The notes: generated by a model from the sequence alone, not told the origin. A stretch of DNA of 64,000 nt from Candidatus Giovannonibacteria bacterium (GCA_016432405.1 CP066687.1:150281-214280); one strand, 5' to 3'. Numbered from the stretch's first letter, positions 4,099 to 42,745 are shown. Program-made: numbers and translations.

Positions 4099-5157
4099 AT
4101 GAAAATCCCGATGCCGAATTTTTTAAAGCTCCCCATCTACGCTTTTGAGCTTTCGGACAGGTCGTACAAATATCTGCGGCTTGGCGAAGTGCGCGGAGGG
4201 ACGGTTGTGAACGATTTTGGCGAAGGGGAAATTGCCGCGGGGGTGATTGAACACGGAGAAATCAAAAAAAGGGACGTGCTTGCGCCTCTCTTGAAAGAAC
4301 TTTTTTTAAAAAAGGACATAAGGTTCGTGGCCGTTTCTTTGCCGGAAGAAAAAGGATTTCTGGAAAATGTCCAGTTGGCCGGAGTAAAAGAAGAAGAGAT
4401 CAGGCAAGCGCTTGAGCTGCAGTTGGAGGAGCATATCCCCCTGCCTCCGGGCGACGTCTTATTTGATCACGAGCTTGCCCGCAAAGACAAAAATCATTTT
4501 GATGTGGTCATAAACGCTTTCCCCAGGACGCTCGTGGAAAGTTATCTTGATACTTTTTATTCAGCAGGCGCGCTGCCAACTTTTACGGAGTCGGAGCTTG
4601 CGGCCTCGGCGAGAGCGCTCATTCCGCAAAATTTCAGAGGCACCGCGATGGTTATAGACTGGGGTAAAACCCGCACCAGCTTCTATATAGTTGAGGACGG
4701 GCGCCTTCGCTTTGCCTCCACTATCAACATAGGCGGAGAGTCGCTTGATGCGGCCATCGCGAAAACCTTGGGCGTCAGCCAAAAAGAGGCGGAGAATTTA
4801 AAAATCAAAAATGGGTTGCTGCAGAATCAGGATTCCCTTCAGGTTTTCCAAGCCATCATCCCGACCGTGACGGCGCTTCGGGAAGAAGCGGAGAAATACA
4901 TAAACTTTTGGCAAACACATTCCGAAAACAAAAAATTCCCGGAGAAAATTTTCCTCTCCGGCGGCGACGCCAATATGAAGGGGCTTGCGGAACATTTTGC
5001 GGAAGAACTCGGTGCGGAAACCGCCGTGGCGAATCCATGGGTCAATGTTAAATTTCCAAAATATTATCTGCCGGATATCACCAGGCAGCATGCGGTGCGT
5101 TTTTCGGCGTCAATCGGCCTTTCATTGGCGGCTAAAGAAAGAGAAGAAACGATATAA
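4099..5157 (+). CDS. pilM: Type IV pilus assembly protein PilM (actin-like ATPase fold)
   Basis: Start chosen at in-frame ATG 4099 (MKIPMPNFLKLPIYAFELSDRSYKYLRLGEV…); PilM-like length and motifs. Confidence 0.82.
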   Translation: MKIPMPNFLKLPIYAFELSDRSYKYLRLGEVRGGTVVNDFGEGEIAAGVIEHGEIKKRDVLAPLLKELFLKKDIRFVAVSLPEEKGFLENVQLAGVKEEEIRQALELQLEEHIPLPPGDVLFDHELARKDKNHFDVVINAFPRTLVESYLDTFYSAGALPTFTESELAASARALIPQNFRGTAMVIDWGKTRTSFYIVEDGRLRFASTINIGGESLDAAIAKTLGVSQKEAENLKIKNGLLQNQDSLQVFQAIIPTVTALREEAEKYINFWQTHSENKKFPEKIFLSGGDANMKGLAEHFAEELGAETAVANPWVNVKFPKYYLPDITRQHAVRFSASIGLSLAAKEREETI

Positions 5158-5158
5158 T

Positions 5159-5728
5159 ATGTATTTACTCACGCCGGCTTACGAAAAGGAGTTTAGAAAA
5201 GAAAAAATCGCGAGAGTCTCGGTAAGCTTTCTGGCTATGCTGATATTGGTTGCGGCGGCAGGTTTTATTTTCATGCTTCCTTCTTATTTCGTGTCGGTTT
5301 TTTCAAAAGATTATATTCTGCGGCAACTTAAAGCCGGGGAAGAGGTTTTCGCAAGAAAAGAATTCAAGAGTCTGGAAGAGCGGGTTGCCGGCGCCAACTC
5401 CCTGATATTTGCTTTTGAAAGAAACGAGGCCAAAAGATATCCGCTTTCCCCAATTCTTCAAAAAATCGCCCTCCGGACGCCGCCTGAAATCAGGATTGAC
5501 TCAATTAACTTCGGCCGGGCCGGCCGAGAAGAAAACATATTCAGTTTCGGAATCCAGGGCGAGGCGGACTCGCGCGAAGACCTTTTGAAATATATTGAGG
5601 TTCTGCGGAGCATGGAGGAATTCGCCTCGGTAAATTCGCCGGTCACCAATCTGCTTAAAGAAAACCGCGCGTCTTTTTTCTTGGACATTAAAATTAAACC
5701 GGAGCGCTACAAATATGCAGAGGAGTAA
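5159..5728 (+). CDS. pilN: PilN-like fimbrial assembly protein (single N-terminal TM)
   Basis: Start at internal ATG 5159 (MYLLTPAYEKEFRKEKIARVSVSFLAMLILVAAAGFIF…); position after pilM. Confidence 0.6.
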   Translation: MYLLTPAYEKEFRKEKIARVSVSFLAMLILVAAAGFIFMLPSYFVSVFSKDYILRQLKAGEEVFARKEFKSLEERVAGANSLIFAFERNEAKRYPLSPILQKIALRTPPEIRIDSINFGRAGREENIFSFGIQGEADSREDLLKYIEVLRSMEEFASVNSPVTNLLKENRASFFLDIKIKPERYKYAEE

Positions 5729-6251
5729 AAAATGGTTTTGGGCCGCAGCCGCGCTGGAGACGCTGTTTTTGGCGGCGGTTTTGGGGTTCGGCTGGCTCAC
5801 CTACGTAAAAATGTCCGCCGCTTCAAAAATAATTTCCGAGGCGGAGGCGAAAATGGCGGCTTTGGAGCAAAAAGAGCGGGAATTTGCGGCTTCGGAGGCG
5901 AACATAAAAGAGCTGGCCGGAGACATAGCCCTTTTGGAGAATTCTTTTTTGTCCGAGGGCTCGTTTGTGAAATTCATTGAGCTTTTGGAAGACGCGGCGC
6001 GGAAAACCGGCGTCAGGTTTTCCGCGCAAAACGCCCGCCTTCCATCCTCGGCCAAAGAAAAGGCCAGCATGACTTTTGAAATCACTGGCACCTTCAGAGT
6101 GGTTTTTAATTTCATTTCGCTTTTGGACAAAATACCTTACGCCGGGCTCGTGGAAAGCGCCTCCTTCTCTCCTAAAATAGAACAAGGGCAAAAGCGCACC
6201 GGGGAAATTACCGCCAAAATAAATTACATAATTTTTAACTACAATTTATGA
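5715..6251 (+). CDS. pilO: PilO-like pilus assembly protein (TM + coiled coil)
   Basis: N-terminal TM, coiled-coil segment EAEAKMAALEQKEREFAASEANIKELAGDIALLE; gene order pilMNO. Confidence 0.5.
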   Translation: MQRSKKWFWAAAALETLFLAAVLGFGWLTYVKMSAASKIISEAEAKMAALEQKEREFAASEANIKELAGDIALLENSFLSEGSFVKFIELLEDAARKTGVRFSAQNARLPSSAKEKASMTFEITGTFRVVFNFISLLDKIPYAGLVESASFSPKIEQGQKRTGEITAKINYIIFNYNL

Positions 6252-6526
6252 ATTTTAAGGAATGGATACCAAAAAGACGGGGGCCGATGACCATAGCCGG
6301 CATTTGGACAGCCGGAGTGGTTGCAGCGCTCGCCCTGCTCTCGGCGGCGCTCTGGGCGGATTTTCTGCTTTACAAAAATTTTGTTTCTGAAAAGGAAACG
6401 GCGGCGACGGAATGGAGCGCAGCCGCGCTCAAAAAAATCAATCTGGAAAGGGCGGGCAAAAAACTTCGCGAAGAAAAATCCTTTCTGGACAATCCAACAT
6501 TCCCGTTTGTAGAAAGCCCTTTTTAG
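6248..6526 (+). CDS. Small membrane protein, pilus-cluster associated (hypothetical)
   Basis: 92 aa, one TM (IAGIWTAGVVAALALLSAALWADFLL), overlaps pilO stop. Confidence 0.4.
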   Translation: MNFKEWIPKRRGPMTIAGIWTAGVVAALALLSAALWADFLLYKNFVSEKETAATEWSAAALKKINLERAGKKLREEKSFLDNPTFPFVESPF

Positions 6527-6553
6527 CGCTATAATTTCCTAGTTTGAAATATT

Positions 6554-6625
6554 CCCCTCGTAGCTTAACGGACAAAGCGGCGCTCTTCTAAGGCGTTGAT
6601 GGGGGTTCAATTCCCTCCGAGGGGA
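6554..6625 (+). tRNA. tRNA-Arg (anticodon TCT)
   Basis: Cloverleaf by eye: acceptor CCCCTCG/CGAGGGG, D stem GCTT/AAGC, anticodon loop CTTCTAA, T loop TTCAATT. Confidence 0.7.
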
Positions 6626-6640
6626 CAAGATAAAAATAAA

Positions 6641-6668
6641 AAGCAGGGGAGAATTCCCTGTCTCTCCC
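6641..6668 (-). terminator. Intrinsic terminator oriented for the reverse strand
   Basis: 9-bp stem CAGGGGAGA/TCTCCCCTG with 10-nt loop; U-run (CTTTTTATTTTTA) follows on the reverse strand only. Confidence 0.6.
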
Positions 6669-6856
6669 CTGTGAGTTGATGCGCCTTCAACGAGGCGCCA
6701 TTGTTATCTTTTCAGCCCGGAGTATCTAATTCCGAGCCGCCTTCCTGCCTCCATCCTCGGTCGCCTTTTTGGGCGTGGGCTGGCGGTTTTTGAGCCGTCT
6801 GGTAGCGGCTCGTTACCATACAGGTACGCCAGTGCGACCTTACCCGAACGTGCCCA

Positions 6857-6952
6857 TTACCAGACGGACGCGATGATCTCCGCTTTGTTGACCTTCGCCT
6901 TCTGCGTCAGTGCCAGCTGGAGACACGCGTCGGGTGCGCGTATGCGCTTCAT
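6857..6952 (-). CDS. Small ORF (31 aa, MKRIRAPDACLQLALTQKAKVNKAEIIASVW) with strong SD; part of a GC-rich reverse-strand transcript
   Basis: GGAGGTG 7 nt upstream of ATG; below ORF-track size cut-off; G/C-ending codon usage atypical for this genome. Confidence 0.35.
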   Translation of the reverse strand: MKRIRAPDACLQLALTQKAKVNKAEIIASVW

Positions 6953-6975
6953 AAAATCACCTCCTTCCGCTTTTA

Positions 6976-7003
6976 ATTTTAGCAACTTGCCAGACGCAGT
7001 CAA
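6976..7003 (-). promoter_or_regulatory. Sigma70-like promoter TTGACT-N16-TAAAAT for the reverse-strand small gene
   Basis: Reverse-strand reading: TTGACTgcgtctggcaagttgcTAAAAT, about 25 nt upstream of the SD/ATG. Confidence 0.5.
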
Positions 7004-7058
7004 GTTTGATATCCACAATAGAAATTGATAGAATTTTAATTATTTTGAGCGTGCCTGC

Positions 7059-10014: not shown

Positions 10015-10491
10015 ATGAATCAGCTGATTAATTTATTTGATAAACACGGCTTTTATTTTTTTCTCGGGCTTTTGGTTTTGAATCTTGCCGCTTTCGCGTG
10101 GGTGTTTGTGTTGCGCAGGAATTTCAAGAAAATCTTCGGCGGCTCTCCAACTGGCGGATTGGATTTGGAAAAAGTTCTGCTGGATTTAAGAGACCGCCAG
10201 AATTCCGCGGATAGAATTTTTGATGAACTAAAAGGCAGGATAAAGTTTTTGGAAGACGCTTTACCGAAAGACATCCGCAAGGTCGGGCTTGTCAGATACA
10301 ACCCCTTTTCCGACGCGGGCGGCGACCAAAGCTTCGCTTTGGCGCTTTTAAACGACAAAAACGACGGCGTTGTAATTTCTTCTCTTTACGGAAGGGAGAT
10401 GAACAGGATTTACGCCAAGCCGATACAGGGCGGCTCGTCGCAGTATCAATTAACGGAAGAAGAACGGACAGCCATACAAAATGCAAAATAG
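10015..10491 (+). CDS. DUF4446-like membrane-anchored protein (hypothetical)
   Basis: Start at ATG 10015 (ORF track begins at a TTG 9976); N-terminal TM; segment LVRYNPFSDAGGDQSFALALLNDKNDGVVISSLYGRE. Confidence 0.45.
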   Translation: MNQLINLFDKHGFYFFLGLLVLNLAAFAWVFVLRRNFKKIFGGSPTGGLDLEKVLLDLRDRQNSADRIFDELKGRIKFLEDALPKDIRKVGLVRYNPFSDAGGDQSFALALLNDKNDGVVISSLYGREMNRIYAKPIQGGSSQYQLTEEERTAIQNAK

Positions 10492-11908
10492 ACCGCCAAT
10501 TGTAGTCGTGATGGGGCACATTGACCATGGCAAGACAGCGCTTTTGGATTATATAAGAAAGACCAATGTTGTGGCCGTGGAATCCGGAGGCATTACCCAG
10601 CACATAGGCGCTTATGAAGTTGAACACGCCGGCAAAAAACTGACTTTTCTGGATACGCCGGGGCACGAGGCGTTTTCCAAAATGCGCTCGCGTGGGGCAG
10701 TGGTCGCTGACATCGCCATATTGGTTGTGGCGGCGGACGACGGGGTTAAGCCGCAAACGGAGGAGGCGCTGGCCACGATAAAAAGCGCCGGCATTCCTTT
10801 TTTGGCCGCCATAAATAAAATTGACAAGCCAGCGGCGGACCCGGAGCGGGTGAAAAACGAGCTTGCCAAAGAAGAAGTGTTTTTGGAAGGGCGCGGCGGA
10901 AATGTGCCCTTCGTTGAAATTTCGGCAAAGCAGGGCACGGGAGTGGACAAGCTCTTGGAGACCATTTTACTAATGGCCGAGATGGAAAACCTCCCGGCCG
11001 ACACCAAAGCGTTCGCGGGCGGAGTGGTTATTGAATCGCACCGCGACCCGAAGCGCGGCGTGACATCCACTTTGCTCATAAGAGGCGGCACTTTGAAAAA
11101 GGGGGAGTATGTCGCCGCCGGAGGGGCGGTCGCCAAGGCGAGGATTTTGGAGGATTTCAAAGGAGACCCGATAGATTTCGCTGGCCCGTCTTCCCCGGTT
11201 TTGGTTGTCGGCTTTGACAAGCCGCCGCAGGTGGGCGCAGAGTTTAAGGCGTTTTTTTCACAAAAGGAAGCAATTGACGCCGCCCGCACCGCCGGAGAAA
11301 AACCCGCGCCCGGTTTCTTCCCGCCGGGAGGTTTTATAGGTCTTGTCATCAAAGCCGATGTTTCGGGCTCGGCGGAGGCGATTGAACACGAAGCGGCAAA
11401 GCTGAAAGATATAAAAATATTGCGCTCGGAAGCCGGCGAGGTGTCCGAAGACGACATCAAGCTTGCTTCCACCGCCGCGAATTCTTTGATTCTGGCTTTC
11501 AAGGTCGGGCTTTCATCAACCCTTCGCGAGCTTGCTTTGCGGCTGGGCGTGGAGGTGGCGCAGTTTGAAATCATATATGAGCTGGCGGATTTTCTTAAGA
11601 AAAAAACAGAAGCGCTCCTACCCAAAGAAGAAATAAATAAAATCCTAGGGCATGCAAGGGTGCTTAAGATTTTCAAGGCGGACGGAAAAACCCAGATAAT
11701 AGGCGGTAAAGTTCAGGACGGCCTAATTCGCCGCGGAGCGGAATTCAGCGTTTTTCGCCGCGAGAAAAAAATAGGCGAAGGGAAAATCGAAAATCTACAG
11801 GAAGGGCGAGTAAACGCCTCCGAGGTTGAAGCCGGAAAAGAATTCGGGGCGCTTGCGAGCTCAAAGATATCAATAGCCGAGGGAGACATATTGGAAATTT
11901 TAGGATGA
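10481..11908 (+). CDS. infB: Translation initiation factor IF-2 (short form lacking N-terminal extension)
   Basis: G domain GHIDHGKT, DTPGHEAF, NKID; 475 aa; followed by rbfA. Confidence 0.9.
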   Translation: MQNRPPIVVVMGHIDHGKTALLDYIRKTNVVAVESGGITQHIGAYEVEHAGKKLTFLDTPGHEAFSKMRSRGAVVADIAILVVAADDGVKPQTEEALATIKSAGIPFLAAINKIDKPAADPERVKNELAKEEVFLEGRGGNVPFVEISAKQGTGVDKLLETILLMAEMENLPADTKAFAGGVVIESHRDPKRGVTSTLLIRGGTLKKGEYVAAGGAVAKARILEDFKGDPIDFAGPSSPVLVVGFDKPPQVGAEFKAFFSQKEAIDAARTAGEKPAPGFFPPGGFIGLVIKADVSGSAEAIEHEAAKLKDIKILRSEAGEVSEDDIKLASTAANSLILAFKVGLSSTLRELALRLGVEVAQFEIIYELADFLKKKTEALLPKEEINKILGHARVLKIFKADGKTQIIGGKVQDGLIRRGAEFSVFRREKKIGEGKIENLQEGRVNASEVEAGKEFGALASSKISIAEGDILEILG

Positions 11909-37291: not shown

Positions 37292-37618
37292 TTAAAAAAA
37301 CCAATAAATCACCGCGGCTAAAAAACCGACTATGAGTATGAAACTGGCAGTCCCCCAAATTACCCACTCCCATATTCTTTTTCTCTCTTCCGGCGCTGCC
37401 TCCCTTTTTCCATATATGGTATATAAAATCACTGCTCGGATAACAAAAAGTAATATCAACCATATAAGTGCGTTGATAGCGCTATCGATCAATAGAAAAA
37501 TATTGGGTTCGTGTACTATCCATGGTGCGATAAACGCGCCGACAAAAACCGAAACAGCAACAACTTTAAATATCCGGTACCAAATTTTCTGATTAAGCTC
37601 TTCTGGTTTTGGTCTCAT
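37292..37618 (-). CDS. Small polytopic membrane protein (hypothetical)
   Basis: Start at internal Met (MRPKPEEL…) because upstream part of track ORF overlaps tRNA genes; three TM helices. Confidence 0.4.
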   Translation of the reverse strand: MRPKPEELNQKIWYRIFKVVAVSVFVGAFIAPWIVHEPNIFLLIDSAINALIWLILLFVIRAVILYTIYGKREAAPEERKRIWEWVIWGTASFILIVGFLAAVIYWFF

Positions 37619-37633
37619 ATAGTATGGTTTTTG

Positions 37634-37704
37634 TAGCGGGGGCCGGATTTGAACCGGCGTCTCAAGGTTATGAGCCTTGCGAGATACCACTTCTCCACCC
37701 CGCG
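37634..37704 (-). tRNA. tRNA-Met, initiator-like (anticodon CAT)
   Basis: Reverse complement CGCGGGGTGGAGAAGTGGTATCTCGCAAGGCTCATAACCTTG…GGTTCAAATCCGGCCCCCGCTA closely resembles bacterial tRNA-fMet (C1 unpaired with 72). Confidence 0.7.
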
Positions 37705-37792
37705 ATGTAAAACAAATTTTACTCCGTTTTTTTGAAAAAGCAAGTTTCAAGCTGGCAGAAACTTTAAAAATGTTATATATTAAGTCGTAACT

Positions 37793-37864
37793 GCCGGCGT
37801 AGCTCAGTGGCAGAGCGAGGGACTCATAAGCCCTAGGCCGCAGGTTCGATCCCTGCCGCCGGCA
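37793..37864 (+). tRNA. tRNA-Met or tRNA-Ile2 (anticodon CAT)
   Basis: GCCGGCGTAGCTCAGTGGCAGAGCG…anticodon loop CTCATAA…GGTTCGATCCCTGCCGCCGGCA. Confidence 0.75.
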
Positions 37865-37878
37865 AATGCGAAAATTAT

Positions 37879-37953
37879 GCAGCCGTAGTGTAGCCCGGTT
37901 AACACGCCTCCCTGTCACGGAGGAGATCGTGGGTTCAAATCCCATCGGCTGCG
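37879..37953 (+). tRNA. tRNA-Asp (anticodon GTC)
   Basis: GCAGCCGTAGTGTAGCCCGGTTAACACGCCTCCCTGTCACGGAGG…GGTTCAAATCCCATCGGCTGCG, discriminator G. Confidence 0.85.
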
Positions 37954-38013
37954 CCCCGAACCAGAAAGGAAATATAGTGACTTTATAATTCTATATTAAG
38001 ATTATACCTATAT

Positions 38014-38723: not shown

Positions 38724-39176
38724 ATGGCGGAGAAAGAAACCCAGATTTCGCGGCTGATTAAAATTGCCAAAGGATTGGTCGGCAGGCCTTACAAATACGG
38801 CGCGAAGATGAAAGACGCGCCAAGTTTTTTTGACTGCTCCCTTTTTACCCAATATGTTTTTAAGCAAATCGGCGTGGATTTGCCAAGAAGCACGATACTG
38901 CAGGCGGATAATGGGATTGAGGCGAGCTTGGAGGACATAAAGCCGGGGGATCTCTTGTTTTTTCACGGCGAGCGCGGTTTTTACAACAAAAAATTTCCAG
39001 AAGGCATCGGGCACGTGGTTTTATACGCGGGAGATGGCAAAGCCGTTCACGCCGCTTCCGAAAGAATTCAAGAAAACCCGGAAGTCGTTGAGCGCGGCGA
39101 GGTAGAGGAAAAAGGACTTGATTATATAATTGACAAATGCGGACCTCTCATCGTTGTTAAGCGGATAATCAAATGA
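38724..39176 (+). CDS. NlpC/P60 (C40) family peptidase
   Basis: Catalytic Cys in FDCSLF, His in GHVVLYAG…H. Confidence 0.8.
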   Translation: MAEKETQISRLIKIAKGLVGRPYKYGAKMKDAPSFFDCSLFTQYVFKQIGVDLPRSTILQADNGIEASLEDIKPGDLLFFHGERGFYNKKFPEGIGHVVLYAGDGKAVHAASERIQENPEVVERGEVEEKGLDYIIDKCGPLIVVKRIIK

Positions 39177-40321
39177 ATATTGAAATCAAATCGCCGGAGG
39201 AGGCGGAAATGAAAAAATTTCTTGAGGAAAGACACGACGCGGAAGCAAAAAGAATTTTGCGGTTTTTAAATATGCCGGACTTGTCGCGCGCGGAGGGGAG
39301 CCCACTCAAAGAAATAGTTGAGCGGGCTTCAAAGGTTAATAGCCTTGAAGGGTTTGATGTTATACAAATCCCCGAAATTATACCTACCAATATTTTGTTT
39401 GATCTCTTTAATATGCCGCCGGGGCATCCCGCCCGCAGCAAATCAGACACTTATTACATCGGCGATGATTATGTGCTTAGGACCCATGATACGGTGTTTT
39501 GGTACTATTATTTAAATTATCCTGAAATTAAAGAAAGAATCGCCAACAAGGAAATCTTAGGCGTGATTTGTTATGGAAAAGTATACCGAAAAGATGAAAT
39601 TGACCGAAGCCACATGAATGTATTCCACCAGTTCGGCGGGCTCCATATTGGGCCTGACGATAAAAAAACCATAACGCCAGAAGATTTAAAAAATACTCTT
39701 TCGGAAGTTGCCAGAAGTATTTTTGGAGATGTTAACTTTAGGTTCTACGATCACAATTTTCCTTATACGGATCCTAGTTTTGAAATGGAGGCGGAAATTA
39801 ACGGGCAATGGATGGAAATGCTCGGCTCTGGCATGGCAAGGAAAAGCGTATTGGCAAATTTTGGCCTTACTGGTTATCACGGCTGGGCTTTTGGTTTTGG
39901 TTTAGAGCGGCTGGCGATGGCTTCCATGAGCTTACCTGATATCCGGCTTTTGTGGTCGGAAGACCCGCGGATTAAAAAGCAACTGCGCTTGGGAAATAAA
40001 TATATTCCGGTGAGCAAATACCCGCCGATTACACGCGATATATCTTTTGTCGCGGACAAAAATTTTATTCCAAATAATTATTTTGATTTGCTAAGGGATT
40101 TGGGCCTGCCTGCCGGCAAGGCAGGGGGCGATTTGATTGAAGAGGTCGGTTTGATTGATAAATATGAAAACGCCGAAAAATTCGGGGAAGCCAAAACCAG
40201 CTACGCTTACCGGATAGTTTTCAGAAGCAACGAAAGGACTTTAACTTCCGGCGAAGTTGATGAGATAATGTCCAAAATTTACTCCGAAACCGCCAAGCAG
40301 TTTAAGGCGGAGTTGAGGTAA
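39173..40321 (+). CDS. pheS: Phenylalanine--tRNA ligase, apparently monomeric type (PheS catalytic core fused to C-terminal FDX-ACB anticodon-binding domain)
   Basis: Class II motifs (…GHPARS…, …GKVYRKDEIDRSHMNVFHQFGG…, …GFGLERLAM…); C-terminal ~95 aa (…ISFVADKNF…TSYAYRIVFRSNERTLTSGEVDEIMSKI) resembles PheT FDX-ACB; short N-terminus; no pheT adjacent. Confidence 0.8.
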   Translation: MNIEIKSPEEAEMKKFLEERHDAEAKRILRFLNMPDLSRAEGSPLKEIVERASKVNSLEGFDVIQIPEIIPTNILFDLFNMPPGHPARSKSDTYYIGDDYVLRTHDTVFWYYYLNYPEIKERIANKEILGVICYGKVYRKDEIDRSHMNVFHQFGGLHIGPDDKKTITPEDLKNTLSEVARSIFGDVNFRFYDHNFPYTDPSFEMEAEINGQWMEMLGSGMARKSVLANFGLTGYHGWAFGFGLERLAMASMSLPDIRLLWSEDPRIKKQLRLGNKYIPVSKYPPITRDISFVADKNFIPNNYFDLLRDLGLPAGKAGGDLIEEVGLIDKYENAEKFGEAKTSYAYRIVFRSNERTLTSGEVDEIMSKIYSETAKQFKAELR

Positions 40322-40442: not shown

Positions 40443-40649
40443 TTAGTGGAGTGCTCTCATGCGCCTTGGAATGTCGTTGATTTTTTCCTCCAGCGCCTTG
40501 ATTTCTGCCTCAAGGCGTTCGCGTTCTTCTTCGCTGAGTTCGCCGCGAATTGATTTTTTCGCGAGAGCCACACGTTTCTCTGTAACTTCGTTGGTAAGCT
40601 TAAACCCTTCGGCTAAAAGAGCTTTTACCTCGTCCAATGTTTTATTCAT
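40443..40649 (-). CDS. Small coiled-coil protein (hypothetical, 68 aa)
   Basis: Start at internal ATG 40649 with AAGGAGGTG SD; helical, charged (…LSEEERERLEAEIKALEEKI…). Confidence 0.35.
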   Translation of the reverse strand: MNKTLDEVKALLAEGFKLTNEVTEKRVALAKKSIRGELSEEERERLEAEIKALEEKINDIPRRMRALH

Positions 40650-40780
40650 GGATACCACCTCCTTTTCTGATAAATTTACCTTATTATATACTAGCAAATT
40701 ATGGTTATTTTGTCAAGTTTTGGGGTTTGCGCCCTGCGGATTTTTATGCTAAGATTTGGGTATAAATTCGGATAAGATTT

Positions 40781-42745
40781 ATGCCAAAAAAAGCCGGTAA
40801 AATTAAGCCCAAAAATGAGGGGGGGAAAGGGGGGAGTTATACCGCCAAGGACATTTTTGTGTTGGAGGGCTTGGAACCGGTTAGGAAGCGCCCGGGGATG
40901 TACATCGGCTCAACCGGCCCCGACGGCCTTCACCATCTCATTTGGGAAGTGGTGGACAACTCCATTGACGAGGCGATGGCCGGGTACGCCAAAAATATCG
41001 CCGTGACTTTGCTGCCGGCTCACCGCGTGCGCGTTATTGACGACGGCCGGGGAATCCCCATTGAAATCCATAAGCAAACCAAGAAATCCGCTTTGGAGAC
41101 GGTGATGACAATGCTGCATGCCGGGGGAAAATTCGGCGGAACGGGATATAAAGTTTCGGGAGGACTCCATGGAGTCGGGATTTCCGTGGTCAACGCTTTG
41201 TCTTCCTGGATGCGCGTGGAGGTTTGCCGCGAGGGCGAGCAATGGGCGCAGGAATACCAGAGAGGCAAGCCAAAAACCAAAGTTCAGAAAGTTGGCAGAT
41301 GCCCGCGCAACGGCACGGCCGTTACTTTTGACCCTGACCCGGAAATTTTTGCCGGTAAAGACGGTAAAATTCCCGAATCTGACTGGAAAAGGATTTTGGA
41401 GCGCATGCGACAGCAGGCCTATCTTACTAAGGGCATAAAAATTTCCGTGCATGACGAGCGCGCCAAAGACAAAGCGGAGCATAAATCCTACGCTTTTTAT
41501 TTTGAAGGCGGCGTGGCTTCTTACGTCGCGTATCTCAATGAAGGGTTTCAGCCCAAGCACGACACAATTTTTTACACCCAAAAAGAATCAGAAGGGATTA
41601 TAGTGGAAATAGCTTTGCAGTACGTTGATGACCTTCAAACGAGGGAGCTCGCTTTCGCGAATAATATTTTAAATCAGGAAGGCGGCCAGCACGCAACCGG
41701 TTTCCGGACGGCGTTGACGCGCTCTTTGAATTTATACGCGCGAAAAAACGGGTATCTGAAAGAAGCGGAGGAAAATCTGACGGGAGAAGACGTCCGCGAG
41801 GGGCTGACTTCCGTAATTTCCGTAAAACTTAAAAATCCGCAGTTTGAGGGGCAGACCAAAGCCAAACTCGGCAACCCCGAGGCGCGTACGGCGGTGGAAG
41901 ACGTTTTCGGAAAAGCGTTTGACGCGTTTTTGGAAGAGCGGCCGCAGGACGCGCGGGCGATTTTGGAAAAAGTCGTCTTGGCTCTCAAGGCGCGCAAAGC
42001 AGCCAAGGCGGCCAAAGACACTATTTTGCGGAAAGGCGCTTTGGAGGGCTTGGCGCTGCCCGGAAAACTGGCGGATTGCCAGTCCAAAAACGCCGCCGAG
42101 TCGGAAATTTTCATAGTTGAAGGCGACTCGGCCGGAGGCACGGCCAAGCAGGCCAGAGACAGAAGATTCCAGGCAATTTTACCATTGCGGGGCAAAATTT
42201 TAAATGTTGAGAAAGCGCGTCTGGACAAAATGCTGACCTCGCAGGAGATTAAGGCGCTGGTGATTGCCTTGGGCGCGGCGATCGCGGAAAGTTTTGACAT
42301 ATCCAAGCTCCGCTACCACCGCGTTGTGATTATGACGGATGCGGACGTGGACGGCGCGCACATACGGACGCTGCTTTTAACGCTTTTTTACAGATACTAT
42401 CTGCCGCTGGTTCAGCAAGGATATGTTTACATCGCCCAGCCGCCGCTTTATAAAATCCAAAAAGGCAAAGATGTAAAATACGCTTACGCCGAAGAAGAAA
42501 AAAATAAAATGACGAAAGGAATTGACGGGCAAAACATCCAGCGCTACAAGGGTTTGGGGGAAATGAACGCTGAGCAGCTTTGGGAGACGACCATGGACCC
42601 GGGGCGGAGAGTGCTTAAGCAGGTGACGATAGAAGACGCCAAAGCGGCCGACCATATTTTTGACGTTTTAATGGGCGACGAGGTGGAGCCGAGGAAGCTT
42701 TTCATTCAGACCCACGCCAAGGCAGTGAAGAATCTGGACATTTGA
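40781..42745 (+). CDS. gyrB: DNA gyrase subunit B
   Basis: GHKL ATPase N-terminus (…GLHHLIWEVVDNSIDEA…), TOPRIM EGDSAGG, 654 aa. Confidence 0.9.
   Translation: MPKKAGKIKPKNEGGKGGSYTAKDIFVLEGLEPVRKRPGMYIGSTGPDGLHHLIWEVVDNSIDEAMAGYAKNIAVTLLPAHRVRVIDDGRGIPIEIHKQTKKSALETVMTMLHAGGKFGGTGYKVSGGLHGVGISVVNALSSWMRVEVCREGEQWAQEYQRGKPKTKVQKVGRCPRNGTAVTFDPDPEIFAGKDGKIPESDWKRILERMRQQAYLTKGIKISVHDERAKDKAEHKSYAFYFEGGVASYVAYLNEGFQPKHDTIFYTQKESEGIIVEIALQYVDDLQTRELAFANNILNQEGGQHATGFRTALTRSLNLYARKNGYLKEAEENLTGEDVREGLTSVISVKLKNPQFEGQTKAKLGNPEARTAVEDVFGKAFDAFLEERPQDARAILEKVVLALKARKAAKAAKDTILRKGALEGLALPGKLADCQSKNAAESEIFIVEGDSAGGTAKQARDRRFQAILPLRGKILNVEKARLDKMLTSQEIKALVIALGAAIAESFDISKLRYHRVVIMTDADVDGAHIRTLLLTLFYRYYLPLVQQGYVYIAQPPLYKIQKGKDVKYAYAEEEKNKMTKGIDGQNIQRYKGLGEMNAEQLWETTMDPGRRVLKQVTIEDAKAADHIFDVLMGDEVEPRKLFIQTHAKAVKNLDI

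What the first reader, a model, noticed from the sequence alone, without database searches (positions are those of the whole stretch)
39173..40321. Apparently monomeric, mitochondrial-type phenylalanyl-tRNA synthetase
The pheS product (382 aa) has a very short N-terminus and lacks the long coiled-coil arm of bacterial PheS. Its class II catalytic core is followed by a ~95-aa C-terminal domain. That domain resembles the ferredoxin-fold anticodon-binding (FDX-ACB) domain normally found at the C-terminus of the beta subunit PheT. No pheT follows; the downstream gene is a small coiled-coil protein, then gyrB. Canonical bacterial PheRS is an (alpha-beta)2 heterotetramer. An alpha-only enzyme with a fused FDX-ACB is the architecture of mitochondrial PheRS. 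It would be a notable streamlining if no pheT exists elsewhere in the genome.
Basis: partly seen in the sequence, partly recalled or inferred. Interest (0 to 1): 0.55.

Follow-up and report, generated by a model that had tools for sequence, protein, structure and literature searches.

The report
Single-chain PheRS in a CPR bacterium
This ultra-small (CPR/Parcubacteria) bacterium appears to charge tRNA-Phe with a one-piece enzyme built like the mitochondrial one, sitting where related bacteria keep the usual two-subunit genes, which runs against the textbook view that all bacteria use the four-chain enzyme.

Summary
Window 39173-40321 (+) encodes a 382-aa protein with a short N-terminus, a class II PheRS catalytic core (aa 39-270) and a C-terminal FDX-ACB/B8 anticodon-binding domain (aa 281-382). 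The AlphaFold model (pLDDT 96) superposes over its full length on human mitochondrial PheRS (TM 0.80).

It is not a one-off. At least 266 GTDB species of Parcubacteria carry it at 66-88% identity. It is more conserved than the adjacent gyrB, and dN/dS is 0.07-0.12.

No PheT editing/B5/B6-7 region and no second pheS occurs in the window or in 1.3 Mb of related flanks. In a related genome with the normal enzyme the order is pheS-pheT-gyrB; here it is fused gene-gyrB. A fully tabulated canonical-type relative lacks the fused gene. I conclude it replaced pheS-pheT.

Still unproven: whole-genome absence of pheT, the monomeric state, and activity.

- A clade-specific coupled active-site swap, T106D with E155G, in 121 of 121 sequences.
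- A detached PheT B2 domain gene directly upstream in 23 of 80 relatives, but not here.
- Relatives of the same architecture in jumbo phages and giant viruses.

It falls outside the organellar clade and below the pheS_mito and SrmL cutoffs. No description was found in the literature searched.

The parts
39173..40321 (+). Complete gene for the single-chain PheRS (382 aa plus stop)
   Evidence: ORF. Pfam two-domain architecture. Orthologues align from residues 1-3 to 382 in 80 GTDB loci. dN/dS is 0.07-0.12 against L007 and L009.
39173..39286 (+). Short N-terminal region (aa 1-38): two short helices. The roughly 100-aa coiled-coil arm of bacterial PheS is absent.
   Evidence: AF2 secondary structure H8-19 and H23-33. 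44 residues precede the core against 107 in E. coli. No PF02912 hit.
39287..39982 (+). Class II PheRS catalytic module (aa 39-270) with the class II signature motifs: HPAR (H85-R88), YRKDEID..H..FHQ (R139) and GWAFGFGLER (A239, R246)
   Evidence: PF01409 E 1.1e-51. Residue table. E. coli A294 corresponds to A239 and T251 to T199.
39488..39490 (+). Codon for Asp106 (LRTH-D-T). Asp in 121 of 121 tight-clade sequences; Thr, Met or Ala in all other family members and in canonical PheS.
39635..39637 (+). Codon for Gly155 (FHQF-G-G). Gly in 121 of 121 tight-clade sequences, where 95 of the other 99 sequences have Glu or Asp. It is the coupled partner of Asp106.
39983..40012 (+). Short linker (aa 271-280) that joins the end of the PheS-like core to the anticodon-binding domain
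   Evidence: Alignment with E. coli PheS, which ends at the equivalent of aa ~270. Pfam domain limits.
40013..40318 (+). FDX-ACB / B8-type anticodon-binding domain (aa 281-382)
   Evidence: PF03147 E 1.4e-21. Matches TIGR00472 PheT positions 694-798. E. coli PheT residues 696-794 hit this domain in relatives. In the model it is folded against the core as in 3CMQ.
40103..40123 (+). 7-aa insertion (GLPAGKA, aa 311-317) in a loop of the anticodon-binding domain. It is absent from all orthologues examined.
   Evidence: Alignment. pLDDT falls to about 72 in that block. Coordinates.
40781..42745 (+). gyrB, the conserved downstream neighbour and the synteny anchor that identifies this site as the pheS-pheT locus
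   Evidence: GyrB matches occur in 71 of 80 related loci and lie downstream of the gene. Canonical-type PMX.50 has pheS, pheT, gyrB as consecutive genes.
38724..39176 (+). NlpC/P60 hydrolase gene whose stop overlaps the PheRS start by 4 nt. It is probably co-transcribed. It occupies the position that a PheT B2-domain gene holds in other lineages.
   Evidence: Pfam E 2.2e-19. Also found in the Giovannonibacteria loci L007-L010. Overlap shown.

Best explanation
The gene encodes the cell's housekeeping phenylalanyl-tRNA synthetase as a single polypeptide: the catalytic module of the alpha subunit fused to the B8 anticodon-binding domain of the beta subunit. It took the place of the ancestral pheS-pheT pair at the same chromosomal site, upstream of gyrB. 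The inferred mechanism follows mitochondrial PheRS. The core binds Phe and ATP and forms Phe-AMP. The C-terminal domain reads the GAA anticodon. A swing of that domain from a closed to an open position brings the acceptor end into the active site. There is no B3/B4 editing site, so Tyr-tRNA-Phe cannot be cleared in cis. Shown here: the architecture, the fold, the conserved catalytic and Phe-pocket residues, strong purifying selection, a wide distribution in Parcubacteria, and the shared locus. Inferred: activity, Phe specificity, the monomeric state, and absence of pheT from the rest of this genome.
For: Two-domain architecture. The best solved relatives are human mtPheRS (E 1e-53), while bacterial PheS matches only the core. 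The AF2 model has pLDDT 96.2 and pTM 0.92. Foldseek gives 3CMQ at TM 0.80 over the full length, against TMq about 0.52 for PheS chains. All motif 1, 2 and 3 and Phe-pocket positions are invariant in 121 orthologues, including the equivalents of E. coli A294 and T251. At least 266 GTDB species encode it at 66-88% identity. It is more conserved than the neighbouring GyrB in 53 of 54 loci, 71.5% against 61.4%. dN/dS is 0.07-0.12. No PheT residues 150-690 and no second PheS were found in the window or in 1.32 Mb of flanks. Canonical-type Paceibacteria PMX.50 has the consecutive genes pheS, pheT, gyrB. Canonical-type PMX_810_sub, with all 866 genes tabulated, has one PheS and one PheT and no fused gene.
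Against: No complete genome of a fused-type organism could be scanned, so a distant pheT is not excluded. The flanks amount to only about 1-2 genome equivalents, so their silence alone is weak. The tight clade has replaced the otherwise near-universal acidic residue of the FHQxE strand with Gly and gained Asp106; the consequence for amino-acid binding is unknown. The protein scores below the curated cutoffs of pheS_mito (210 against 258), pheS (163 against 237) and SrmL (216 against 300). Oligomeric state cannot be read from sequence. In 23 of 80 related loci a PheT B2-like protein is encoded directly upstream, so in some lineages the enzyme may not act alone.
Confidence: 0.75

Rival explanations
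1. It is an extra PheS-derived paralogue with another, unknown ligase function, comparable to NCBI's 'PheS-related mystery ligase SrmL'. A normal pheS-pheT pair elsewhere in the genome would then do the tRNA-Phe charging.
For: The best NCBIfam hit by score is SrmL, NF051887. The clade-specific T106D/E155G swap lies in the amino-acid-binding site. Whole-genome absence of pheT was not tested.
Against: The SrmL score of 216 bits is well under the 300-bit cutoff, and the best score among 97 family representatives was only E 2.1e-81. The gene sits at the pheS-pheT position upstream of gyrB. Canonical-type relatives lack it. It is more conserved than GyrB and under strong purifying selection. The anticodon-binding domain and the aromatic Phe pocket are intact.
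Confidence: 0.08
2. It is the PheRS but not a self-sufficient monomer. It needs a partner: either a free-standing OB-fold tRNA-binding protein derived from PheT domain B2, encoded elsewhere in this genome, or a second copy of itself as a homodimer.
For: 23 of 80 related loci encode a conserved protein of about 117-196 aa (most 130-140) directly upstream. Its best solved matches are PheT B2 domains at E about 1e-13, against 1e-3 to 1e-5 for free tRNA-binding proteins. This is a large family. Most class II synthetases are dimers (general knowledge).
Against: No tRNA_bind gene occurs in this 64-kb window, and none lies next to the gene in the Giovannonibacteria loci. The B2 domain is described as dispensable (title of Roy & Ibba 2006, cited in PMC5370408). 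Canonical CPR PheT proteins themselves lack B2. The model adopts the closed monomer arrangement of 3CMQ, and human mtPheRS is fully active as a monomer (PMC3275996).
Confidence: 0.15
3. Origin rival: the gene is a xenologue acquired already fused from a eukaryote, a jumbo phage or a giant virus, and did not arise from the lineage's own pheS-pheT.
For: The same architecture is found in organelles and on about 40 large viral contigs. The CPR anticodon-binding domain is closer to organellar/viral ones (33% identity) than to PheT B8 domains (26%).
Against: The CPR clade is not nested among eukaryotic or viral sequences. It groups with other bacterial fused proteins (bootstrap 74-97%), apart from the organellar/viral group. 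It lacks the organellar insertion (17 residues against 40-84). It occupies the ancestral pheS-pheT site.
Confidence: 0.15

Closest known systems
Mitochondrial/plastid monomeric PheRS (human FARS2, yeast MSF1; PDB 3CMQ, 3TUP; TIGR00469; 'PheRS-M' of AARS Online)
   Same: One chain made of the alpha catalytic module plus the B8/FDX-ACB domain. No coiled-coil arm, no editing domain and no B5/B6/B7. The model superposes on the closed form at TM 0.80. Thr at the ttVal261 position, as in the human enzyme.
   Different: A cellular bacterial gene with no targeting peptide. It lacks the 40-84-residue insertion between motifs 2 and 3. About 36% core identity, no closer than to canonical PheS. Below the TIGR00469 cutoff. 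Outside the organellar clade. Carries the D106/G155 swap.
Canonical bacterial (alpha-beta)2 PheRS, PheS + PheT (E. coli 3PCO, T. thermophilus 1PYS)
   Same: The catalytic core and Phe pocket are homologous, about 34% identical. The C-terminal domain is homologous to PheT B8. Related Paceibacteria place pheS-pheT at the same locus upstream of gyrB.
   Different: The alpha N-terminal coiled coil and beta domains B1-B7, including the B3/B4 editing site, are absent. According to the review PMC3275996, alpha alone is inactive and the heterotetramer is conserved in all known prokaryotes.
NCBIfam NF051887, 'PheS-related mystery ligase SrmL'
   Same: A bacterial PheS-derived protein whose 349-position model aligns across both the core and the C-terminal domain (aa 61-372).
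   Different: The score of 216.5 bits is far below the 300-bit cutoff. No paper on SrmL was found, so its biology could not be compared.
Single-chain PheRS genes of jumbo phages and giant viruses (uncharacterised)
   Same: Same two-domain architecture at about 32-40% identity. Examples: the 340-kb contig L087, the 635-kb LR745206.1, and about 40 IMG/VR contigs.
   Different: These are viral accessory genes. They cluster with organellar enzymes in 'group II', not with the CPR clade, and they keep the ancestral Thr/Glu active-site state.
Reduced CPR PheRS beta subunits lacking domain B2 (Mukai et al. 2017, PMC5370408)
   Same: Another case of domain loss from PheRS in CPR bacteria. The canonical PheT of PMX_810_sub and PMX.50 also lacks tRNA_bind.
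   Different: Those enzymes still have separate alpha and beta subunits, with editing, B5 and B6/7 domains.

Membership tests
Mitochondrial-type monomeric PheRS (TIGR00469 / PheRS-M) | Class II PheRS catalytic module followed in the same chain by the B8/FDX-ACB anticodon-binding domain | tested here: met
   Pfam PF01409 at aa 39-270 plus PF03147 at aa 281-382. Full-length structural match to 3CMQ, TM 0.80.
Mitochondrial-type monomeric PheRS (TIGR00469 / PheRS-M) | Absence of the alpha N-terminal coiled coil and of beta domains B1-B7 | tested here: met
   No PF02912, B3_4 or B5 hit. 44 against 107 residues before the core.
Mitochondrial-type monomeric PheRS (TIGR00469 / PheRS-M) | Score at or above the curated equivalog cutoff (258.35 bits) | tested here: not met
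   210 bits.
Mitochondrial-type monomeric PheRS (TIGR00469 / PheRS-M) | Phylogenetic placement within the organellar clade | tested here: not met
   In NJ trees the CPR clade falls in a separate bacterial group (bootstrap 74-97%). The organellar and viral sequences form the other group.
Mitochondrial-type monomeric PheRS (TIGR00469 / PheRS-M) | Active as a monomer without any beta subunit | not testable with these tools
   Needs biochemistry. The only supporting point is that the model has the closed-state domain packing of 3CMQ.
Mitochondrial-type monomeric PheRS (TIGR00469 / PheRS-M) | It is the only PheRS of its compartment or genome (no pheS/pheT alongside) | tested here: inconclusive
   None in the window or in 1.32 Mb of related flanks. 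It sits at the pheS-pheT-gyrB position. Canonical-type relatives lack it. No complete fused-type genome could be scanned.
Canonical bacterial PheS (TIGR00468) | Score at or above 237.45 bits, with the N-terminal domain PF02912 | tested here: not met
   163 bits. No PF02912 hit.
Canonical bacterial PheS (TIGR00468) | Partner pheT gene, usually adjacent | tested here: not met
   Upstream is NlpC/P60. Downstream is a non-conserved small ORF and then gyrB. No PheT match in the window.
SrmL, PheS-related mystery ligase (NF051887) | Score at or above the curated cutoff (300 bits) | tested here: not met
   216.5 bits.
Class II aminoacyl-tRNA synthetase, PheRS subtype | Motifs 1, 2 and 3 and the Phe-pocket residues (equivalents of ttPhe258/Phe260, ttVal261/EcT251, EcA294) | tested here: met
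   H85, R88, R139, H147, F151, Q153, F196, Y198, T199, A239, G241, G243 and R246 are invariant in 121 orthologues. Tyr at the ttPhe260 position is called a conservative change in PMC3275996. The exception is Gly155 in place of the conserved Glu/Asp.

The most novel reading that the evidence does not exclude
The single-chain (catalytic core plus B8) PheRS was invented once, in bacteria or their viruses. The CPR clade, other bacterial fused forms, the jumbo-phage/giant-virus forms and the mitochondrial/plastid enzyme would then all descend from that one fusion. In that case the 'mitochondrial' PheRS would be a prokaryotic or viral invention acquired by eukaryotes, not a eukaryotic innovation. 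My trees are compatible with this: all fused cores separate from 7 canonical PheS sequences at 100% bootstrap, and fused anticodon-binding domains separate from PheT B8 at 68%. The canonical sample was only Proteobacteria and Firmicutes, so independent fusions are not excluded.
Probability: 0.25. Interest if true: 0.85.

Novelty: new variant of a known kind. Interest (0 to 1): 0.62.

Why it matters
Reviews state that PheRS is an (alpha-beta)2 heterotetramer in all known prokaryotes, that alpha alone is inactive, and that the mitochondrial chimera is the only monomeric enzyme with a class II catalytic module (PMC3275996). A large bacterial radiation that runs translation on a roughly 380-aa single-chain PheRS with no editing domain would overturn that generalisation.

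It would also:
- provide a compact natural bacterial PheRS for biochemistry and genetic-code engineering;
- raise the question of how these cells tolerate Tyr or m-Tyr mischarging;
- bear on where the mitochondrial enzyme came from.

There is a practical side. NCBI submitter annotations call these proteins 'hypothetical'. JGI calls the 140-aa B2 fragments 'beta chain'. pheS and pheT are, from my own memory and unverified here, used as single-copy markers. Completeness estimates and phylogenomic marker sets may therefore misbehave for these lineages.

Tried and rejected
1. SrmL membership: rejected on score. A literature search for SrmL returned only unrelated acronyms.
2. Literature on monomeric or mitochondrial-like PheRS in bacteria or CPR. 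Seven searches found no description. They found only the textbook three-form view and the organellar cases.
3. KO or gene tables in Parcubacteria papers. PMC11188291, PMC9530719 and PMC12281837 had nothing. PMC10936435 and PMC9763046 were informative.
4. Obtaining a CPR PheT seed sequence. P0264 was an ordinary Gram-negative PheS without an adjacent pheT. The profile search with the B2 fragments returned only standalone B2 proteins.
5. The idea that the upstream B2 gene predates the fusion (B2 gene-pheS-pheT-gyrB): not supported. PMX_810_sub has no PF01588 protein in the stored table. PMX.50 has only a distant Trbp111-like one far from pheS.
6. The small downstream 'coiled-coil gene' as part of the system: rejected. 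It is on the minus strand and is not conserved.
It was rerun without that row.
8. Whole-genome scanning of the 1.21-Mb contig CAYYWQ010000001.1 is not possible with these tools, which return only 10-kb flanks.
9. I could not measure whether Asp106 reaches the substrate amino group, because model coordinates are not returned.
10. The third large protein search was deliberately left unused, since no query could answer the remaining question.

Full report
**What is there**

Window 39173-40321 (+) is an intact 382-aa ORF. [quoted passage not shown] Only 44 residues precede the core, against 107 in E. coli PheS. The PheS N-terminal domain PF02912 is not detected.

The best matches among solved structures are human mitochondrial PheRS (E about 1e-53). 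Bacterial PheS chains match only the core (E 1e-30 or weaker), and a PheT beta chain matches only aa 275-382.

An AlphaFold2 model built from 83 homologues is very confident (pLDDT 96.2, pTM 0.92). It superposes over its whole length on human mtPheRS in the closed state (3CMQ, TM 0.80, E 1e-35). Bacterial PheS chains cover only about half of it (TMq about 0.52).

**Organism and distribution**

The closest named proteins are from Candidatus Giovannonibacteria (88% identity). Others come from many Parcubacteria/Patescibacteria lineages. A scan of one genome per GTDB species found 266 loci encoding a close relative. The best 80 are 66-88% identical over the full length. They are named Giovannoni-, Doudna-, Yanofsky-, Nomura-, Zambryski-, Lipton-, Wolfe- and Sungiibacteria.

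The protein is more conserved than the adjacent GyrB in 53 of 54 loci (71.5% against 61.4% mean identity). dN/dS against the nearest relatives is 0.07-0.12. That is the behaviour of an essential enzyme.

**Is there a beta subunit?**

- In the window, tblastn with E. coli PheT finds nothing (best E 0.31). E. coli PheS finds only this gene. The ten largest ORFs are unrelated.
- In 1.32 Mb of flanks from the 80 related loci there is no match to PheT residues 150-690 (editing B3/4, B5, B6/7) and no second PheS. This sample is only about 1-2 genome equivalents, so on its own it is weak (my estimate).
- Published gene tables give stronger evidence. Some Paceibacteria keep the normal enzyme. Ca. Yanofskyibacterium PMX_810_sub has a canonical PheS and a full-length PheT. 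All 866 of its genes are in the stored table, and it has no fused gene.
- Ca. Microsyncoccus PMX.50 has the consecutive genes 00316 pheS, 00317 pheT and 00318 gyrB. In the window the fused gene lies upstream of gyrB (40781-42745). GyrB matches occur in 71 of the 80 related loci and lie downstream of the gene.

The fused gene therefore occupies the pheS-pheT position. I take this as good, though indirect, evidence that it replaced the two-subunit enzyme. Direct proof, a whole fused-type genome without pheT, was out of reach with these tools.

**Active site**

Across 121 orthologues every class II and PheRS signature position is invariant. This includes the equivalents of E. coli Ala294 (A239) and Thr251 (T199), and the aromatic pair F196/Y198. 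A Tyr at the second aromatic position is described as a conservative change, and Thr at the next position is what human mtPheRS has (PMC3275996).

There is one striking exception. Position 155 in the FHQxE strand is Gly in 121 of 121 tight-clade sequences. Of the other 99 sequences, 95 have Glu or Asp (88 of 91 organellar/viral, 5 of 6 other bacterial fused forms, and both canonical PheS). Position 106 is Asp in 121 of 121, while all others have Thr, Met or Ala. The sister cluster P0121 (55% identical) keeps the ancestral pair.

From memory, the lost residue corresponds to T. thermophilus alpha-Glu220, a ligand of the substrate amino group. I could not verify this in a held paper, nor measure the model geometry. 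My working inference is a relocated acidic ligand. A change of substrate is the less likely alternative, because the aromatic pocket is untouched.

**A detached piece of PheT in some relatives**

In 23 of 80 loci an ORF of about 117-196 aa (most 130-140) lies directly upstream of the fused gene. These are mostly Doudnabacteria-type lineages, plus the 1.21-Mb contig L001/L020. The ORF matches E. coli PheT residues about 41-151 at 33-44% identity. Its best solved matches are PheT B2 domains (E about 1e-13), far ahead of free tRNA-binding proteins.

It belongs to a large family, which JGI annotates as 'phenylalanyl-tRNA synthetase beta chain'. It is absent from this window and from the Giovannonibacteria loci, where an NlpC/P60 gene sits instead.

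Canonical CPR PheT proteins lack B2, and canonical-type genomes have no B2 gene next to pheS. The origin of this ORF is therefore unexplained.

**Relationship to known families**

The protein is below the curated cutoffs of pheS_mito (210 against 258 bits), pheS (163 against 237) and SrmL (216.5 against 300).

An exhaustive search of 1.84 billion representatives found only 191 at E 1e-30 or better. Neighbour-joining trees of the core give three results:
- A tight CPR clade (bootstrap 100%).
- That clade lies within a bacterial group that includes an Oligoflexia MAG and a lineage whose gene does not translate with table 11 (bootstrap 74-97%).
- A second group holds genuine mitochondrial enzymes (amphioxus, chytrids, Euglena, a fern) and short forms of about 340-360 aa.

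At least some of the short forms are viral. One lies on a 340-kb phage-like contig and one on a 635-kb uncultured phage. About 40 IMG/VR contigs carry the full architecture, many of 200-536 kb, plus giant-virus MAGs.

All fused cores separate from seven canonical PheS sequences (100%). Fused anticodon-binding domains separate from six PheT B8 domains (68%). My canonical sample was only Proteobacteria and Firmicutes, so single and independent origins of the fusion remain open. Core identity of the CPR clade to organellar enzymes (36%) is no higher than to canonical PheS (35%). The protein works like a mitochondrial PheRS in architecture but is not a demonstrated member of that clade.

**Novelty**

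The review literature describes three forms of PheRS. It states that the heterotetramer is conserved in all known prokaryotes, that alpha alone is inactive, and that the mitochondrial CAM+B8 chimera is the only monomeric case (PMC3275996). Seven full-text searches found no description of a bacterial or CPR single-chain PheRS. The only related remark is that many CPR beta subunits lack B2 (PMC5370408).

I rate it a new variant of a known kind. The architecture is known. What is new is the setting (a housekeeping gene of a large bacterial radiation), the active-site swap, and the optional split B2 partner.

**Verdict**

The main residual uncertainty is the untested whole-genome absence of pheT and the lack of biochemistry. 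Confidence that this is the sole, self-contained PheRS is about 0.75.

Noticed in passing
L013, L018, L020-L022, L024, L025, L027, L030, L036, L038, L039, L041-L043, L046-L048, L051, L056, L060, L065, L067 (directly upstream of the central gene); L001:9543-9974: A conserved standalone ORF of about 117-196 aa (most 130-140), homologous to PheT domain B2 (OB-fold tRNA_bind), lies directly upstream of the fused PheRS gene in 23 of 80 related genomes. It is absent from this window and from the Giovannonibacteria loci. Its origin is unexplained, because canonical CPR PheT proteins lack B2 and have no such neighbour.
   Followed up: yes
proteins P0308-P0415; P0003, P0011, P0020: An annotation pitfall. 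JGI names the 140-aa B2 fragments 'phenylalanyl-tRNA synthetase beta chain'. NCBI submitter annotation calls the fused PheRS 'hypothetical protein'. Annotation-based or marker-based surveys could therefore score pheT or pheS wrongly in these lineages.
   Followed up: partly
L087:8001-9047 (340-kb contig); L097:2833-3912 (LR745206.1, 635 kb); L099-L141 (IMG/VR): Jumbo-phage-sized contigs and giant-virus MAGs encode a short single-chain PheRS (core plus FDX-ACB, about 340-360 aa). These cluster with the organellar enzymes and not with the CPR clade.
   Followed up: partly
L090:9463-10833, L091:154-1524 (protein P0131): This fused-type PheRS gene does not translate to its recorded product with genetic code 11. 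That suggests a recoded lineage (for example Gracilibacteria or Absconditabacteria) that also uses a single-chain PheRS.
   Followed up: no
window 40103-40123: A 7-aa insertion (GLPAGKA) in a loop of the anticodon-binding domain, unique to this genome among the orthologues examined. Model confidence is lower there (about 72).
   Followed up: partly
window 40443-40697 (-): A small coiled-coil ORF between PheRS and gyrB lies on the minus strand. A promoter-like site sits at 40716-40688, whose -10 element falls inside the annotated TTG start, so the real start may be the internal ATG. It has no counterpart in 80 related loci, and only 37 nt of the intergenic region are conserved with L007.
   Followed up: partly
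L096:3613-4665 and 4680-7046 (Ruminococcus phage NatCom_28775, PV036440.1): A 79.5-kb phage record labelled as a complete genome has adjacent ORFs of 350 aa and 788 aa, both annotated 'hypothetical protein'. The first matches PheS. I used the second as a PheT sequence on the basis of its size, position and C-terminal end, but did not verify it. Together they would make a full two-subunit PheRS.
   Followed up: no
L039 (labelled Verrucomicrobiia, 8.9-kb contig); L086 (labelled Nitrospira sp., 4.2-kb contig); many loci labelled 'uncultured Candidatus Saccharibacteria': Short contigs that carry a 68-70% identical CPR-type gene sit in MAGs named for unrelated phyla. These are probably binning contamination or generic mislabelling.
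   Followed up: no
L029 and L061 (same MAG, JACQLT01, contigs 1 and 3): The same MAG shows the gene at the ends of two different contigs of about 100 kb. This is either an assembly overlap or a true duplication.
   Followed up: no
window 37633-37956: Two tRNA-Met(CAT) genes lie on opposite strands, followed by a tRNA-Asp that ARAGORN calls at 79 nt and Rfam at 75 nt. The spurious 217-aa ORF at 37292-37945 (-) overlaps them. No tRNA-Phe gene is among the 12 tRNAs of the window.
   Followed up: no
window 10481-11908: IF-2 is only 475 aa and starts directly at the GTPase domain, so it has no N-terminal extension. This may be another example of domain trimming in translation proteins of this genome.
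   Followed up: no
L098:489-3121 (sister clade P0121/P0271): In the sister cluster, which keeps the ancestral Thr106/Asp155 state, the fused PheRS gene is immediately followed by a CCA-adding enzyme gene instead of gyrB.
   Followed up: no
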